Virus record (IMG/VR): IMGVR_UViG_2541047938_000006
Source: a virus
Lineage: Duplodnaviria > Heunggongvirae > Uroviricota > Caudoviricetes
Length of the DNA: 64,000 nt
Strand: one strand, 5' to 3'
Below are positions 3,001 through 9,000 of this stretch, one piece after another (position 1 is the stretch's first letter; each line of letters starts with the position of its first letter). The position numbers are program-made.

Positions 3001-6000
3001 CTACGAGGAGATGAAAACGACCGGGATCTTTAAGAAAAAATGCCCGGAAGAACACTACGTCGCTTTCCGCGCATTCCGTGAAGATCCACAGGCAAACCCG
3101 TTGAAAACACCTTCGGGGAAAATCGAAATTTATTCTGAACGACTGGCGAAGATTGCAGATACCTGGGAATTGAAAAAAGATGAAATTATTCATCCCCTTC
3201 CTGCGTATACCCCAGGTTTTGATGGCTGGGACGATCCCCTGCGGAAAACCTATCCACTGCAGTTAACGGGCTTCCATTACAAAGCGCGTACCCACTCCAG
3301 CTACGGCAATATTGATGTGTTACAGCAGGCCTGCCCACAAGAGGTGTGGATCAACCCCATTGATGCTCAGGCACGCGGTATCCGTCATGGCGATACCGTG
3401 CGGGTATTTAACAATAATGGAGAAATGCTGATTGCCGCAAAAGTGACTCCGCGTATTCTGCCTGGCGTTACCGCCATCGGGCAAGGTGCGTGGCTTAAAG
3501 CGGATATGTTTGGTGACCGGGTCGATCACGGCGGCAGTATCAATATTCTGACCTCTCACCGCCCTTCACCGCTGGCAAAGGGAAACCCGTCGCACAGCAA
3601 TCTTGTCCAGATCGAAAAGGTTTAAGGAGTAGCCCATGACCACACAATATGGATTTTTTATCGATTCCAGCCGCTGTACTGGCTGTAAAACCTGCGAACT
3701 GGCGTGCAAAGATTTTAAAGTTGGTTACGTATCGTTTAAAATCAATTAGATAGCCCGTCATTTCTGCGCTCACACGTCCCAACATTGAAAAACATGCAAA
3801 GCTTTGTAAGCCGATGCAAAGCTTTGTGTGTCTCACTTTTGTCCCAATACCAATCCGAATCCACCCTTTGTCATCATTGAGAAATGGCAAGGAAGAAAAG
3901 GATGTTACTGCACGATTTGACAAATCCGCCAGAGCTATCGCATACTGATCGCACTGAACAAATAAGCGGTCTCCGCACCCGATAGCTTTGCGGCTTTTTT
4001 ATGCCTGCAATTTGGCATAGTTACATCCGTACAAAGGTCGGGTGGAGAGGCGTAATACAACACCCGCAAGGGGAATATGCCCAGAGCTTCTTATTTGGCT
4101 CAGTTGACACCCGACCGCCAGCTACTAACTGGCGGTTATAAACTAAACAAATAAGGAGGTCATCATGACCAGTCAACTCATCCCCGTATTCAACGGTTCT
4201 ATCTCAAACCAAGCAGCCCTTCTATGCAATGCTCGCAATCTACACGCTTTCCTTGGGGTTGGTAAACGCTTTGCATCGTGGATAACAGAACGTATTGCTG
4301 AATATGGTTTCGTTGAAAATCAGGACTATATGATTGCTTCCCAAATTCGGGAAGCAAAAGGTAGAGGCGGTCACAACCGCAAGGAATACCACCTCACCCT
4401 CGACACAGCCAAAGAGCTTGCGATGGTTGAACGTAACGAAAAAGGTCGCCAGATCCGCCGCTACTTCATCGAGTGCGAAAAGAAACTTCGCAACATTCAG
4501 CCAGTACAAGCAGAACCACAGCCGCAATTCACAGCCGAGGAAATCATCCTCCTTTGCTACATGCAGCTCTGGATGGAAAAAGCCCAGGACCTCAGCAAAC
4601 ACCTGTATCCCATCATGAAAGAGCTGAACTCCTCATACACGAACAAGCTGTATGACATTGCGTTTGAGACCATCTACATGGTGACGAAGAACAGAGATGC
4701 GTTACTGAGGGAAGTAACACGTCTCGACATGTCAAGTTCCGTTATCCAGCGGGCCATGCCAATGCTGAAAAGCCTGCGGGCAAGACAATTTGAATTCTGA
4801 AACCAAAGGAGCTTCGGCTCCTTTTTTCATGCCTGAACGACAACGCCGCTGAAATCGAAGAGTTAATACAATAAAGAGAAGAGCTCAGTACATTAGATAA
4901 ACATTTTTTATCATTATCTCATTGCCTTTATTCAAAAAAATAGTTACATAACGTTACTAGGTAAAATGCAAACCCTCGCTATTTTTATCAGATTGTATGC
5001 CGGTAACTATAACAAAAATCAGAACTGGAGAAGATGTTTTGTCAGCAGCCATTCACCGCATTGAATGGTTGTTTGAAACATTCTCTTCTGTATGTTTATC
5101 TTTTTCTGGCGGTAAAGATTCCACTGTACTTTTCCATCTTGTAGCCGAAGTGGCCTACAGGAAGAAACGTCGTTTTTCTGTATTGTTCATTGACTGGGAA
5201 GCCCAGTATCAATGCACCATTGATCATATACAGAAGATGCGGATGATGTACCAAGATGTAACAGATACCTTTTACTGGGTTGCACTTCCCCTGACGACAG
5301 TAAATGGTGTCTCGCAGTTTCAGCCTGAGTGGATATGCTGGGAGCCCGGTGTAGAGTGGGTTCGACAGCCACCGGAAGATGCTATTACTGATATGGCGTA
5401 TTTCCCCTTTTACCGCTACGCCATGACTTTTGAAGAATTTGTCCCAGCTTTTTCTTCCTGGTTCGCAAGTAACCAATGTAGCGTGGCAATACTGACTGGA
5501 GTCCGCGCGGATGAATCTCTTAACAGATTTATGGGACTGGTTTCCCAACGAAAACTGAGATATGCAGATGATAAACCCTGGACCACGGCGTCACCTGAAG
5601 GTTTTTACTACACCATGTATCCGCTGTATGACTGGAAAACCAACGATATCTGGGTATATAACGCTAAAACCTGTGCAATCTACAATCCTCTGTATGATTT
5701 GATGTACCGTGCAGGCATTCCTCTACGTAATATGCGTGTCTGTGAGCCTTTTGGCCCGGAACAGCGTAAGGGACTATGGCTTTATCATGTTCTGGAGCCA
5801 GAAACTTGGGCACGGATGTGTGAACGAGTATCTGGTGCTGCCAGTGGGGCTCTTTATGCCAATGAAAGCGGGGCCTATTTTGCCCTGCGTAAACGGATGT
5901 CAAAACCATCCCATCATACCTGGCGCAGCTATGCGTTCTTCCTGCTGGACGTAATGCCGGAAAGAACGGCTGAACACTACCGCAACAAGATAGCAGTCTA

Positions 6001-9000
6001 CCTGCGCTGGTATCAGAACCGGGGATTCCCGGATGATATCCCGGATGAACAGGAAAATGATCTGGGCTGCCGGGATGTTCCCTCCTGGCGACGTATTTGT
6101 AAGACTCTCATAAAGAATGATTTCTGGTGCCGAACGCTCTCCTTCAGCCCCAACAAACCCCGGCACTATGAACGTTACCTGCAGCGTATGAATGAAAGGA
6201 GGAAGGAATGGGGAATTCTGTGACACCAGAGGTGGAGGTGCTGAGCAAGATGATTCGACAGTACTTCAGTCAGGAACAATCTGAAGAGAAAACCATACAG
6301 GCCCTGAACCATCTCCGCTGCGTACTCCATGAGATCAGCCCCTTTGCTCAAGAACCAGTGGACTGTGTGCTGTGGGTAAAAGCGGATGAAATTGTCGCTA
6401 ACGATTATAATCCCAATGTCATGGCCCCAAGCGAAAAAAAATTACTGAAACAATCTCTGGAAAAAGACGGTTTTACTCAACCAATTGTTGTTTCGGAAGA
6501 AACAAGCCATTACCTGGTGGTGGATGGTTTTCATAGGCAGTTACTAGGTAGAAGAACAGTTACTGGAAAACGCCTGAAAGGCTGGCTACCAGTAACCTGT
6601 ATTAATCCAGACCGAAAGGGACAAACCTCACGTATTGCCGCGACTATCCGACATAACAGAGCCAGGGGGAAACACCAGATAACCTCAATGTCTGATATTG
6701 TCAGAGATCTTTCACGTCTTGGCTGGACTGATGAACGTATCGGAACAGAACTGGGGATGGACCAGGATGAAGTTCTGAGGTTAAAGCAGATTAGCGGGCT
6801 AACGGAGTTATTTCAGCAGGCAGATTTCAGCCCTGCATGGACTGTTACATAAAGTTAGGTTAGGCCTGTGGAGCCGGGGAATCGGAATTAAACATCTTCC
6901 CTCCCCGGTAAATACAAATAAGGGCTGAACATCATCCCGACTACCTCAGATCACCTAATAATATATCAAGATTATTTTGCGCATTAATGCTATTCGCCAT
7001 TACTGTTGCTGCTTCTGGCAACTTTCCAAGAGCAATAAATATATTCTTAAGGCTGATTGGAATTGATGAACCATGCGGATCGCGCCACTCACCGCAAATT
7101 CTGTGAGTTTCATCACAAAGCCTGAACGCATCCCAACCTCCATATTGACCAAAAATTATGTCCATTGACTCTATTTCTGCGGGCGATAACTCCCCCAGCT
7201 CATCAACAGAAGAAAATGTACGCCACATTTCAACCTTATGATCCGCTACATCAGATATCCATGATTCCCACGGACTGTACTCGTTTTCACTTCCATCCTT
7301 AACCAAAGAATATGTCTGCGATAAAACGGGTCCTTTGTTCATAGAGAAATAATGATCACCACTAATGGGAAAACCATACAACTCCATTGCTTTGCGGTCA
7401 GAGAGATACATCAGCTTAATGAAACGCATAGATCCGCCATGTTTTTTCAGCAAATACGCTGCCATTTACGCAACTTTTTCTTCATTAAACATAAATCGGC
7501 TCTCTGTCTCACATGAAATACTCTTTCTGACTATATGTTAATAGCTCCGGTTATTACAGGTTAATGTGTGTTTATTTCTTAATCAGCCCCGCACTTCCGT
7601 ACGGGGCCATTTCTGTTAATCCACTCCCACTTTTTTGTTGTACTCGCGGTTAAAGCGATCCACGGCAACCTTCATATCCCGCTCTACCGATTTCACCATC
7701 GCCGCCTGCTGCGCCAGACTGAGAGAACTGTCGGCATAAATGGCATCGCGCTGTTTGCGCAAATCCTTCAGTCTCTTCCGGGTATCCTGCATAAGCCCGT
7801 TCATCAACAATTTTCCGTTGTTCTCGTCAATGAACGCCGTTCTTTCTGCACCGGTCAGACTCTTCAGCTCTGCGTGATACTGCGCAACCTCTGTCATCCG
7901 GTCGTACATCTTCTGCTGGTCTGCATACGGCATCACCTCACCCGAAATTTTCCCCAGGAAGGGCACCTGCTGCTCCGGTATATCAATACCGTTCAGCGAT
8001 TTCACCGCCGCATCTGTGGTTTTGGAAATGAAGCGCCCTGTCCCTCCGGAGATATAGTCAATCCAGAATTTCAGCGATTCCGGTGTGATATCCACCGCGC
8101 CGGGACGATACTGGCTGCCACCTGAGAACGCATTCAGCCAGGATGCAAACGCCTTGTACGCCTCAGGCGTTGAACGTCTGCCCAGTTGGCTGTCCGGTTT
8201 CGGTGTGCCAAATGGCATGTTCTCCTGGTAAATCTGCGCCCCCATGAAGTTTTCATTCATGGCAAGGTTCGCAAACGGACGCAGAATGGTCGGCGCTGCA
8301 TTTTTCAGCAATGCCCCGGACAGTGTTTCCGACGTTTCACTGCCCACAGGACTGAATGCCCCCAGGATACCACCGACAACATTACCGGCAGCACGTGAAG
8401 CAGTCAGGTCGCCCGCTGCCACACCTTCAGCAGTATGCCCGAGCAGGAAGAAAACGTTGTACCCGTAAGGCAGAGGAATACTCCAGTACTCTCCGGCCTT
8501 GCCCCCGAACACCGATTTCATAATGACGAGGTTACGCTCTTTCACATGAGACGGCACCTTGTCATACCAGTTAACCCCGTCATCATCCTCCCCCGCAACA
8601 CTGCGGTTAAGCGAGCCAAGCAGATAACCCGCTCCCACAGCTGCAAGCGCGATTTTCTGCGGTACATTGAGATTCTTCCAGCGAAGGCGCTCCGGTAACG
8701 GCCCGTCGCCATTAAGATGTCCGAGCGTTCTCACCAGGTTTGCGGTCCCCTGAATGCTGGCGTTGGCAAACATATACAGCGAGTTCATCAGCGCTCCCTG
8801 CTCACCACGACGGTTAAAGTTCACCGTCATGTTTTTGGCAAGAGATGCCGCCTGCTGGCGTGACAAACCGGCATCACGGGCGTGTTTATAGGCAGAAAGA
8901 CGCAGAGCGTTTTCAACCGCGCCGTTGGCATCCTCGACCAGGTTCAGGAACGAATGCCATGCACCGATACTCTGGCCTTTCCATCCTCCCTTCGCCAGCG

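What the first reader, a model, noticed from the sequence alone, without database searches (positions are those of the whole stretch)
4165..7465. attR-proximal cargo cluster: AntA antirepressor, PAPS-reductase-like plus ParB-like pair (ibrAB-like), and a solo Panacea-domain gene
The PP-loop (SGGKDS) ATP-pyrophosphatase-like protein is translationally coupled to a ParB/sulfiredoxin-like protein (VVDGFHR). The pair is known genetically as IbrA/IbrB regulators of eib, and an eib gene is present 19 kb away, but its biochemistry is undescribed and the domain combination suggests nucleic-acid modification. A Panacea/GepA-domain gene converges on it with no recognisable toxin nearby.
Basis: partly seen in the sequence, partly recalled or inferred. 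Interest (0 to 1): 0.6.

Follow-up and report, generated by a model that had tools for sequence, protein, structure and literature searches.

The report
Prophage-end accessory genes: antA, ibrAB, orphan antitoxin
This is a correctly read patch of accessory genes at the end of an E. coli prophage; its core, the already named but biochemically uncharacterised IbrA-IbrB enzyme pair, turns out to be an inseparable two-gene module spread across many bacterial phyla and phages, and the neighbouring "solo" antitoxin gene is a decaying leftover of a toxin-antitoxin pair.

Summary
All four ORFs exist at the stated coordinates, and AntA, IbrA and Panacea score above Pfam thresholds. IbrB is ParB-like only at family-profile level. 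An EibD-like gene lies about 18-20 kb away, and the cluster sits at the integrase-distal (attR) end of a 933W-like prophage inserted in ynfG.

These are annotated genes: 100% identical in E. coli SCU-104 and 99% in phage PhiR5_2. About 35% of complete E. coli genomes carry an ibrAB allele.

New here:
- IbrA and IbrB are adjacent in all 116 informative loci across many phyla, whereas AntA and Panacea travel with them only in this phage lineage.
- IbrA has the ATP PP-loop and the FAD-synthase/CysD/PAPS-reductase core fold. It has no family-wide catalytic cysteine, so it is probably an adenylyl-transferase, not a PAPS reductase.
- IbrB is a Srx/DndB-type (DGFHR) ParB-fold domain followed by an HTH.
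- Distant relatives add an SNF2 helicase.
- The Panacea gene has lost its downstream partner and carries a stop at ancestral codon 9.

My best guess is a DNA-directed, nucleotide-dependent modification pair, which is inferred and untested. I found no paper on its biochemistry. The finding is ordinary as a locus and moderately interesting as a family.

The parts
3637..3720 (+). 5' fragment of ynfG, ending in the prophage attachment core TTTAAAG (3714-3720). This is the attR-side junction.
   Evidence: Sequence. PGAP calls it a truncated 4Fe-4S protein in the identical genome. The same 7-bp core is found next to the integrase and the ynfG remainder at the other prophage end.
4165..4800 (+). antA, an AntA/AntB-type antirepressor of 211 aa, with its own Shine-Dalgarno sequence.
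   Evidence: PF08346 92.4 bits and PF10548 29.6 bits. phrog_377 'anti-repressor Ant' at 4e-98.
4806..4829 (+). Hairpin plus T-run directly after antA. It is a likely intrinsic terminator that separates antA from ibrAB.
   Evidence: Sequence AAGGAGCTTCGGCTCCTTTTTTC. The consensus scan did not list it.
4830..4996 (+). AT-rich spacer (about 39-43% GC) upstream of ibrA. This is the presumed ibrAB promoter region, but no strong consensus promoter was found.
4997..6223 (+). ibrA: a PP-loop ATP-pyrophosphatase core of the PAPS-reductase/CysD/FAD-synthase type (residues about 14-240) followed by the helical DUF3440 domain (about 240-408).
6208..6852 (+). ibrB: an N-terminal helical extension, a ParB/Srx-fold nucleotide-binding domain (NDYNPN, DGFTQPIV, VVDGFHR, TIRHNRARGKH), then a ParB-like helix-turn-helix. 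There is no C-terminal dimerisation domain.
   Evidence: 61% identical to YbdM. The start overlaps the ibrA stop (6208-6223) behind AGGAGG.
6874..6906 (.). Inverted repeat (CCGGGGA ... TCCCCGG) between the convergent ibrB and Panacea genes. It is a possible bidirectional terminator.
   Evidence: Read from the sequence. No strong T-run, and the scan did not call it.
6941..7465 (-). Panacea (SocA-like, DUF4065) antitoxin-domain gene of 174 aa. It is an orphan, with no partner gene downstream.
   Evidence: PF13274 70.7 bits. Homologues in four phages are each followed by a gene of 135-139 aa. In three of them (YeP2, Klebsiella phi12.5, Lys8385Vzw) that gene overlaps or abuts the Panacea gene and the three partners are homologous to each other; two were scanned and match phrog_19071. 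In Pseudomonas phage Sirocco it lies about 430 bp downstream and is unrelated. That partner gene is absent from the whole window.
7466..7492 (-). In-frame remnant of the ancestral Panacea N-terminus, reading MFNEEKVA then TAA. The Gln-9 codon of full-length homologues (MFSEEKVAQMAAYLL) is a stop here, immediately followed by the annotated ATG.
   Evidence: The sequence is identical in all six members of the lineage that were examined.
7616..15994 (-). Last gene of the phage late region: a 2792-aa polyvalent protein with LPD5, LPD1, MuF_C and LPD38 domains. It marks the inner border of the variable accessory region.
   Evidence: Pfam. PGAP name 'LPD38 domain-containing protein'.
25191..26651 (-). 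eib gene: an EibD-like trimeric autotransporter. Genetically it is the reported target of IbrAB activation.
   Evidence: YadA_head and YadA_anchor. EibD crystal-structure sequence matched at E = 1.8e-106.

Best explanation
Shown:
- The segment is the variable accessory ('moron') region at the integrase-distal end of a 933W-like, Eib-encoding prophage inserted in ynfG.
- It holds three independent cassettes: antA, which is followed by a hairpin plus T-run that I read as its own terminator; the overlapping bicistron ibrA-ibrB; and an orphaned Panacea antitoxin gene.
- ibrAB is a self-contained, horizontally mobile two-gene module.

Inferred mechanism:
- IbrA is an ATP-using PP-loop enzyme of the CysD/FAD-synthase/PAPS-reductase branch. 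These enzymes transfer AMP from ATP onto an oxyanion or carbonyl of the substrate.
- IbrA is not a sulfate-assimilation PAPS reductase.
- IbrB is a Srx/DndB-type ParB-fold nucleotide-binding protein with a ParB-like HTH.
- I propose that IbrB binds DNA and a nucleotide, and that it recruits or gates IbrA. This would parallel the GTPase CysN gating CysD, and the ParB-like DndB and DpdB working with DndC and DpdA.
- IbrA would then adenylate, and so activate for covalent modification or processing, a group on DNA or on a DNA-bound substrate.
- The reported activation of eib would be a downstream consequence of altered DNA or chromatin state, not the primary function.

The Panacea gene is a remnant of a PanA-PanT-type pair whose toxin was lost at a recombination junction.
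For: Identity and context.

Independence of the cassettes: AntA, Panacea and the polyvalent protein co-occur with IbrAB only in the near-identical lineage. More than 200 Stx-phage genomes share only the polyvalent-gene flank and the first 28 or so Panacea codons.

Obligate pairing: an IbrB homologue lies next to IbrA in all 116 informative loci (the 120 IMG/VR and GTDB loci minus four truncated contigs). IbrA identity in these loci runs from 28% to 100%. They span Proteobacteria, Bacteroidota, Bacillota, Actinomycetota, Campylobacterota, Elusimicrobiota and others. The two genes mostly overlap or lie within about 30 nt of each other.

IbrA chemistry:
- The PP-loop SGGKDS is nearly invariant (at least 90%) in the 30-52%-identity set, together with the D66/E68 and GxRxxESxxR motifs.
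- NCBIfam scores are far below every equivalog cut-off.
- Cys249 is kept only in the IbrA/YbdN-type clade and is Ala or Ser in the sister clade. No set of three or four cysteines is conserved.

IbrB: family-profile hits to Noc, ParB, SbnI and SerK N-domains. DGFHR and RHNRARG are invariant, and an LRLKQ HTH segment aligns with the ParB HTH.

DNA link:
- An SNF2-family helicase sits directly upstream in 23 of 80 genome loci.
- Streptococcus phage PY1 has two adjacent genes annotated 'DNA helicase', which I did not test for SNF2 membership, followed by the PAPS-reductase and ParB-like genes.
- Homing-endonuclease and integrase genes are among the neighbours.
- One homologue has a roughly 240-residue insertion in the conserved core that looks like an intein.

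Phage use: homologues occur in Streptococcus, Flavobacterium, Mycobacterium, Arthrobacter and Bacillus phages.

Panacea remnant.
Against: No experiment or paper shows any enzymatic activity, DNA binding or complex formation for IbrA or IbrB.

The IbrB structure model was poor (pLDDT 45.5). The HTH and the nucleotide pocket therefore rest on sequence alignment alone.

The DUF3440 domain matched nothing informative.

The only functional datum, that both genes are needed for eib expression, is equally compatible with a transcription-factor role.

No IbrA-IbrB fusion was found among the 150 family representatives.

I found no shared sequence motif between the ibrA and eib upstream regions.

Cys249 is invariant in the clade to which this IbrA belongs. 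Sulfur chemistry in this clade therefore cannot be excluded.

The chromosomal paralogue ybdNM sits in a conserved metabolic neighbourhood (ahpCF, dsbG, ybdL) and is repressed by CitR. That could point to a small-molecule substrate instead.
Confidence: 0.5

Rival explanations
1. IbrAB is primarily a transcription-control pair. IbrB would be a VirB/KorB-like ParB-family DNA-binding switch that relieves silencing of AT-rich prophage genes such as eib. IbrA would only make, remove or sense IbrB's nucleotide ligand.
For: Genetic report that both genes activate eib (Sandt et al. 2002, cited in PMC7649339). IbrB has a ParB-type HTH. ParB-fold proteins that regulate genes through CTP are known (PMC12704722). 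The eib upstream region is AT-rich. Here ibrAB and eib are on the same prophage.
Against: The pair is conserved with the enzyme in phyla and phages that have no eib, and it often sits among phage early or replication-region genes.

IbrB has DGFHR instead of the GERRxR CTP motif and lacks a dimerisation domain.

Some relatives add an SNF2 helicase.

No palindrome or motif is shared by the ibrA and eib upstream regions.
Confidence: 0.2
2. IbrAB is an immunity-related module. It would be either a minimal Dnd/Ssp/BREX-4-like DNA-marking system that protects the prophage and host DNA or excludes other phages, or a phage counter-defence that marks phage DNA.
For: Weak similarity of IbrA to BrxP and DndC. 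The ParB-like partner recalls DndB and DpdB (PMC12839542). The SNF2 partner resembles ZorD, DpdE and DrmD helicases. The module sits in a prophage accessory hot spot and occurs in many phages.
Against: It is not a member of any PADLOC v2 system: only sub-threshold hits for IbrA and none for IbrB.

Neighbours of 150 sampled flanking genes show no defence-gene enrichment.

There is no cysteine desulfurase, DndD/E or restriction partner nearby. There is no conserved Fe-S or persulfide cysteine set.

A copy is a core, repressed chromosomal operon in Enterobacteriaceae.
Confidence: 0.2
3. IbrA is a genuine PAPS/APS reductase, that is, an auxiliary sulfur-metabolism gene as its database name implies.
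For: Pfam PF01507 hit and the PGAP/PHROG name 'phosphoadenosine phosphosulfate reductase'.
Against: IbrA has a canonical ATP PP-loop, which CysH-type reductases lack (my own knowledge of the family).

NCBIfam CysH and APS-reductase models score 21-33 bits against cut-offs of 154-254.

There is no ECGLH tail, and the only candidate cysteine is not conserved across the family.

IbrA has an obligate ParB-like partner and is not linked to cys genes.
Confidence: 0.03
4. The solo Panacea gene is functional. It would be a phage-borne antitoxin kept to neutralise a host or competitor PanT-type toxin (counter-defence or anti-addiction), translated by re-initiation at the TAA-ATG junction.
For: The 174-aa ORF is intact, scores 70.7 bits over the whole Panacea domain and is 97.7-100% conserved in the phage and prophage copies compared at protein level. 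At DNA level, 18 complete E. coli genomes keep at least 80% of the region. The stop and the start abut (TAAATG), which permits coupling. Panacea domains neutralise many unrelated toxins (PMC8832971).
Against: All three close homologues examined are bicistronic, with a homologous downstream partner that is missing here. The gene has a stop at ancestral codon 9 and a 3-residue deletion in a conserved helix. More than 200 related Stx prophages retain only a 28-codon stub. The copies diverge too little to test selection.
Confidence: 0.25

Closest known systems
IbrA/IbrB of the E. coli ECOR-9 IbrAB island (Sandt, Hopper and Hill 2002) and their K-12 paralogues YbdN/YbdM
   Same: Same two-domain IbrA (PAPS_reduct plus DUF3440) and the same ParB-like IbrB in the same order with overlapping genes. 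IbrA is 57% identical to YbdN and IbrB is 61% identical to YbdM. The genes are annotated IbrA/IbrB in phage PhiR5_2 at 100% protein identity. An eib gene is present in the same genome.
   Different: This allele is about 16% divergent at nucleotide level from the ibrAB allele found in about 35% of complete E. coli genomes, and it occurs in only 19 records. Here it is carried on the same prophage as eib, not on a separate island. ybdNM sits in a fixed chromosomal context under the LysR repressor CitR/YbdO, and that repressor is absent here.
CysD-CysN ATP sulfurylase and eukaryotic FAD synthase (FMN adenylyltransferase)
   Different: Only about 170 residues align, at 20-22% identity. IbrA has the extra DUF3440 domain. 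Its partner is a ParB-fold protein with an HTH, not a translational-type GTPase. The substrate is unknown.
DndB-DndC (and SspB-SspD, BrxP) DNA phosphorothioation components
   Same: The same domain logic: a PAPS-reductase-like PP-loop ATPase working with a ParB/DGQHR-type protein on DNA. There are weak direct hits of IbrA to DndC and BrxP models.
   Different: TIGR03183 DndC scores 17.8 bits against a cut-off of 290. There is no DndA/D/E, SspA/C or brx gene nearby. There is no conserved cysteine or Fe-S signature. IbrB gets no PADLOC hit.
PanA-PanT (Panacea) toxin-antitoxin pairs (Kurata et al. 2022, PMC8832971)
   Same: The gene at 6941-7465 carries a full-length Panacea domain. Its three close phage homologues (35-49% identity) sit in two-gene operons with a small homologous downstream gene.
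   Different: No partner is present here. The N-terminus is cut by a stop codon and a conserved helix has a 3-residue deletion.

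Membership tests
IbrA/YbdN family (PAPS_reduct + DUF3440) | Both Pfam domains above their gathering scores, in this order | tested here: met
   PF01507 61.3 bits (cut-off 22.5) and PF11922 114.8 bits (cut-off 25).
IbrA/YbdN family (PAPS_reduct + DUF3440) | Full-length similarity to the named members | tested here: met
   57% identity over 406 aa to K-12 YbdN. 100% identity to the gene annotated IbrA in PhiR5_2.
IbrA/YbdN family (PAPS_reduct + DUF3440) | Adjacent, co-oriented IbrB/YbdM-type gene | tested here: met
   16-nt overlap here. 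Adjacency in all 116 informative loci.
IbrB/YbdM family (IbrB-like ParB-fold protein) | Similarity to YbdM and the family signature motifs (NDYNPN, DGFHR, RHNRARG) | tested here: met
   61% identity to YbdM. The motifs are invariant in 42 sequences from many phyla.
ParB/Srx fold (Pfam ParB_N) | ParB_N profile match above the gathering score | tested here: not met
   The single sequence scores 18.9 bits against a cut-off of 26.3. A family profile does reach Noc and ParB N-domains at E = 6e-7 to 3e-6, so the fold assignment is supported but the curated threshold is not.
Canonical ParB-CTPase DNA clamp | GERRxR box II, HTH, and C-terminal dimerisation domain | tested here: not met
   Box II is DGFHR. 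An HTH-like segment is present by alignment. The protein ends about 15 residues after the HTH, so it has no dimerisation domain. The structure model is too poor to add anything.
PAPS/APS reductase (CysH) | Score above the equivalog cut-off, and a catalytic C-terminal cysteine (ECGLH) | tested here: not met
   NF002537 scores 32.9 against 154 and TIGR02057 scores 31.2 against 254. There is no ECGLH. Cys249 is present in only about 45% of family representatives.
DndC / DNA phosphorothioation | DndC equivalog score, the Fe-S cysteines, and dndA/D/E or ssp partner genes | tested here: not met
   TIGR03183 scores 17.8 against 290. No conserved cysteine set. No such neighbours in the window or in relatives.
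BREX type 4 (BrxP) | BrxP-length protein with DUF4007 and neighbouring brx/pglZ genes | tested here: not met
   Only a local 28-bit hit to about 80 residues of a 779-position model. No brx genes nearby.
Panacea (PanA) type II antitoxin | Panacea domain above the Pfam threshold | tested here: met
   PF13274 70.7 bits against a cut-off of 25.7, covering profile positions 2-112 of 113.
Panacea (PanA) type II antitoxin | Bicistronic arrangement with a cognate toxin gene | tested here: not met
   Only 88 nt lie between its stop and the ibrB stop. tblastn of four homologues' partner proteins against the window gives nothing below E = 0.01.
AntA/AntB antirepressor | AntA domain, and the P22 antirepressor C-terminal domain, above threshold | tested here: met
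   92.4 bits and 29.6 bits. Antirepressor activity itself was not testable.
Eib immunoglobulin-binding trimeric autotransporter | YadA head repeats, a C-terminal YadA anchor, and close similarity to a characterised Eib | tested here: met
   (EibD, E = 1.8e-106). Immunoglobulin binding was not testable.

The most novel reading that the evidence does not exclude
IbrA-IbrB would be the core of an undescribed nucleotide-dependent DNA-modification or DNA-processing system, extended in some lineages by an SNF2 helicase or a conserved 137-aa protein. A ParB/Srx-type partner would target or gate a cysteine-independent adenylyl-transferase on DNA. Phages and other mobile elements in many phyla would use it to alter the chemical or epigenetic state of DNA, and eib activation in E. 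coli would be a side effect.
Probability: 0.3. Interest if true: 0.75.

Novelty: already known. Interest (0 to 1): 0.4.

Why it matters
As a locus it changes nothing. The genes are annotated, the same allele exists in sequenced strains and in an isolated phage, and related ibrAB alleles are in about a third of complete E. coli genomes.

The interest lies in the family. The pair is inseparable and very widespread, it is present in phages of at least five host genera, and it is strongly conserved (IbrB motifs are invariant across phyla). Yet I found no biochemical description of it, and it matches no system in the PADLOC defence catalogue (version 2, 2023).

If it modifies DNA, it would add a new chemistry to phage-host conflict. 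It would also explain a 20-year-old genetic observation (eib activation) and give a function to the K-12 orphan operon ybdNM.

The analysis yields concrete experiments: test ATP-PPi activity, DNA and NTP binding, and modification mapping. It also flags 'phosphoadenosine phosphosulfate reductase' as a probably misleading database name.

Tried and rejected
- **Literature.** Ten full-text searches (IbrA/IbrB, ibrAB, ybdN/ybdM, DUF3440, PAPS reductase plus ParB, SNF2, phage) found no biochemical or structural study. Hits were swamped by 'iBRB' (the blood-retinal barrier). The 2002 paper itself is not held.
- **PDB sequence searches.** Searches with IbrA, IbrB and Panacea found no close solved homologue.
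- **IbrB structure prediction.** It failed (pLDDT 45.5), probably because the permitted alignment was too shallow (74-92% identity). I therefore ran no fold search on it and used a sequence profile instead.
- **Genome scan with the diverse IbrA alignment.** I used the closer alignment.
- **Fusion proteins.** I looked for IbrA-IbrB fusions among longer family representatives and found none. The long proteins carry an N-terminal 137-aa-family domain, an apparent intein, or low-complexity tails.
- **Common IbrB site.** I looked for palindromes or shared 10-12-mers between the ibrA and eib upstream regions. The only shared word is one AT-rich 10-mer, which I take to be chance.
- **Defence-island context.** Pfam scans of 150 flanking proteins showed no enrichment, only scattered integrases, homing endonucleases and SNF2.
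- **Fe-S or persulfide site.** I considered that the invariant cysteines of the close clade form such a site. I rejected this for the family because the four positions do not co-vary and Cys249 is Ala or Ser in the sister clade.
- **Panacea partner elsewhere.** I considered that the partner might be the upstream giant gene or a small ORF in the 150-nt spacer. I rejected this because homologues carry the partner downstream, and the spacer instead holds the remnant of the gene's own N-terminus.

Full report
**1. What is at the coordinates**

The window begins in the E. coli ynfE-ynfF genes. ynfG starts at 3637 and is interrupted after about 28 codons at a 7-bp core, TTTAAAG (3714-3720). The same core flanks the integrase and the remaining ynfG at the other end of the element in E. 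coli SCU-104, whose sequence is 100% identical over 3600-7700.

The inserted element is a roughly 60-kb lambdoid prophage of the 933W/Stx-phage type. It has an N4-gp56-type capsid and a giant polyvalent protein, and its late genes lie on the minus strand. It is 99% identical over this region to the isolated phage PhiR5_2.

The finding therefore lies at the integrase-distal end, which is attR by the lambda convention.

Pfam confirms the following:
- AntA plus P22_AR_C.
- PAPS_reduct plus DUF3440, with an SGGKDS PP-loop.
- The Panacea domain.

IbrB reaches only 18.9 bits on ParB_N, below the curated 26.3. Three other results support a ParB/Srx fold for IbrB:
- A profile built from 42 homologues hits Noc, ParB, Spo0J, SbnI and SerK N-terminal domains.
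- The protein is 61% identical to K-12 YbdM.
- PHROGs files it as ParB-like.

IbrA is 57% identical to YbdN. ibrB starts behind AGGAGG and overlaps the ibrA stop by 16 nt.

The gene at 25191-26651 is an EibD-like trimeric autotransporter.

**2. The cluster is a mosaic, not a unit**

antA ends in a hairpin plus T-run (4806-4829). A 170-nt AT-rich spacer follows before ibrA.

In 40 IMG/VR contigs that encode an IbrA relative, AntA, Panacea and the polyvalent protein appear only in the copies that are essentially identical to the window. IbrB is always present.

More than 200 complete E. coli genomes, mostly Stx prophages of O157:H7, O104:H4 and others, share the 3' flank of the polyvalent gene and only the first 28 or so codons of the Panacea gene. 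After that they diverge.

Stx phages carry other accessory genes (ygiW, hok-like, EaA) between antA and that point. The segment is thus a recombination hot spot where cassettes are exchanged.

Relatives of the window also differ at antA. They have an 89-codon antA stub, identical to the window's 5' half, followed by a second full paralogue. This makes them 528 bp longer.

**3. IbrA-IbrB is an obligate pair**

I added 80 loci from GTDB species genomes and searched ORFs with family HMMs. An IbrB homologue lies next to IbrA in every one of the 116 loci that have sequence on the relevant side. Only four truncated contigs lack it.

The loci cover Enterobacterales, Vibrio (on a plasmid), Helicobacter, Alphaproteobacteria, Desulfovibrio, Bacteroidota, Bacillota, Streptomyces, Elusimicrobiota, Lentisphaeria and candidate phyla. 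IbrA identity ranges from 28% to 100%. The order is nearly always A then B, with a small overlap or gap. Three loci have the order B then A.

IbrB is remarkably conserved, with 28 invariant positions in sequences from different phyla.

In E. coli, 1,930 of 5,426 complete genomes carry an ibrAB allele. Most are about 84% identical at nucleotide level, there are up to four copies per genome, and 66 places are on plasmids. The window's allele occurs in 19 records. In addition, ybdNM is a core operon next to its LysR repressor CitR/YbdO.

**4. What the proteins are likely to do**

*IbrA.* The AlphaFold model (pLDDT 78.8; the core is above 90) matches several PP-loop enzymes over about 170 residues:
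- More distantly, TilS, TtuA and NAD/GMP synthetases.

The ATP-binding PP-loop, the D-x-E motif after strand 2, G168-x-R-x-x-E-S-x-x-R and P-x-x-D-W are conserved down to 30% identity.

There is no ECGLH tail. All NCBIfam CysH, CysD and DndC models score far below their cut-offs.

The motif M-R-x-C-x-P-F/Y-G contains Cys249, which is invariant among close relatives. In the sister clade the position is Ala or Ser, and no other cysteine co-varies with it.

I infer that the chemistry common to the family is ATP-dependent adenylyl transfer, as in CysD and FMN adenylyltransferase. It is not PAPS reduction and not Fe-S or persulfide-dependent thiolation. Clade-specific sulfur chemistry at Cys249 cannot be excluded.

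*IbrB.* The box-II equivalent is D-G-F-H-R. This resembles sulfiredoxin (GCHR) and DndB (DGQHR) more than the GERRxR of CTP-dependent ParB clamps (the motif comparison is from my own knowledge). The C-terminal segment '...TDERIGTELGMDQDEVLRLKQISGL' aligns with the ParB/Noc HTH. No dimerisation domain follows it. The IbrB structure prediction was too poor to use.

**5. Accessory partners point to DNA**

In 23 of 80 genome loci, mostly the Ala/Ser clade, an SNF2-family helicase gene lies directly upstream. These helicases give generic hits to ZorD, DpdE and DrmD.

Streptococcus phage PY1 has two adjacent genes annotated 'DNA helicase', then the PAPS-reductase gene, then the ParB-like gene, located after the lysis genes. 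I did not test whether those helicase genes are SNF2-type. S. thermophilus Brussowvirus phages carry the pair at the same place.

Ten loci have a conserved 137-aa protein upstream, and one representative has it fused to the IbrA N-terminus. One homologue has a roughly 240-residue insertion in the conserved Y-N/Y-D region that looks like an intein.

Otherwise the neighbours are heterogeneous and are not enriched for defence genes. Neither protein belongs to a PADLOC v2 system.

**6. Mechanistic proposal and rivals**

My preferred reading has three steps. IbrB binds DNA and a nucleotide. It recruits or gates IbrA. IbrA adenylates a DNA-linked group as the first step of a covalent modification or processing reaction.

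Three precedents support this logic: CysN-CysD (a nucleotide-hydrolysing partner drives an adenylyl transfer), DndB-DndC, and DpdB-DpdA (PMC12839542).

The reported need for both genes for Eib expression (Sandt et al. 2002, as cited in PMC7649339) would be a downstream effect.

The rivals are:
- A pure regulatory role for IbrB, of the VirB/KorB kind.
- A defence or counter-defence role, which is compatible with the same chemistry.
- Genuine sulfur metabolism, which is very unlikely.

None of these can be settled by sequence analysis alone.

**7. The Panacea gene**

Homologues in Yersinia phages YeP1-3, Klebsiella phage ST13-OXA48phi12.5 and E. coli phage Lys8385Vzw begin MFSEEKVAQMAAYLL. Each is followed, at a 4-nt overlap or a 3-nt gap, by a homologous gene of 135-139 aa. 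The two copies scanned match phrog_19071 and have no Pfam family. This is the usual layout of a Panacea antitoxin with its toxin (PMC8832971).

A more distant homologue in Pseudomonas phage Sirocco has an unrelated 139-aa gene about 430 bp downstream instead.

In the window and in all five related copies examined (SCU-104, PhiR5_2 and three IMG/VR loci), the upstream in-frame codons read MFNEEKVA-TAA-ATG. The Gln-9 codon has become a stop, and the annotated ORF restarts at Met-10. A conserved 'KLL' is deleted. The downstream partner is absent from the whole window.

The most economical reading is an orphaned remnant. A retained stand-alone antitoxin used against foreign toxins remains possible.

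**8. Verdict**

The locus itself is already known and annotated. The open question, what IbrAB does chemically, is real and general, and the comparative results here make it testable. I score interest at 0.4.

Noticed in passing
window 7463-7492 (- strand): The Panacea gene has an in-frame stop (TAA) at the position of Gln-9 of full-length homologues, immediately followed by the annotated ATG. It also has a 3-residue deletion in the conserved LKLMKLLYLSDR helix. The sequence is the same in all six copies of the lineage that I checked.
   Followed up: yes
window 4153-4430 versus L002 (PhiR5_2) 1-1892: Most relatives are 528 bp longer here. They have an 89-codon antA stub, 100% identical to the window's 5' half, plus a second full antA paralogue that is 88.5% identical at nucleotide level. 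The window has a single intact antA. This marks a recombination or replacement junction inside antA.
   Followed up: partly
L069, L075, L082, L083, L087, L091, L094-L106, L109, L113, L114, L116 (gene at position -1 or -2); L129 3883-5051: Distant IbrAB pairs (31-46% IbrA identity; Bacteroidota, Alphaproteobacteria, Clostridia, Xenorhabdus) have an SNF2-family helicase gene directly upstream, forming a three-gene operon that is not in PADLOC v2. Streptococcus phage PY1 has two adjacent genes annotated 'DNA helicase' at the same position; I did not test whether they are SNF2-type.
   Followed up: partly
L024, L030, L031, L039, L065, L067, L068, L071, L072, L089 (gene at -1); protein P0242: A conserved protein of about 137 aa with no Pfam family precedes ibrA in ten loci. 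It is fused to the N-terminus of IbrA in one 535-aa representative, which suggests a functional link. It is absent from the window.
   Followed up: partly
protein P0358 (631 aa IbrA homologue): An insertion of about 240 residues that looks like an intein splits the conserved Y-N / Y-D region of the IbrA core. I did not check it against a profile.
   Followed up: no
window 42346-46937: An IS21-family element (istA 43636-45177, istB 45189-45938) splits a SASA-family (NanS-p-like) esterase gene. The DUF1737 plus SASA part is at 45996-46937 and the DUF6645 part at 42346-43455. SCU-104 has the esterase gene intact at this place.
   Followed up: partly
window 51590-52349 (+): An apparently intact Gp49/HigB-like (RelE/ParE superfamily) toxin plus HTH_3 antitoxin pair lies in the early region of the same prophage.
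   Followed up: no
window 56-1141: ynfE is intact up to the window start. In the otherwise identical strain SCU-104 an ISEc8 (IS66-family) transposase gene is annotated immediately upstream of an N-terminally truncated copy of this gene. The window therefore comes from a different, closely related genome.
   Followed up: no
window 19200-19500 region, inferred from L003 8316-8456: SCU-104's annotation shows a Hok/Gef-family toxin gene and an Ail/Lom gene (window 19643-20380, PF06316) among the late-region accessory genes. This is another accessory island inside the tail region.
   Followed up: no
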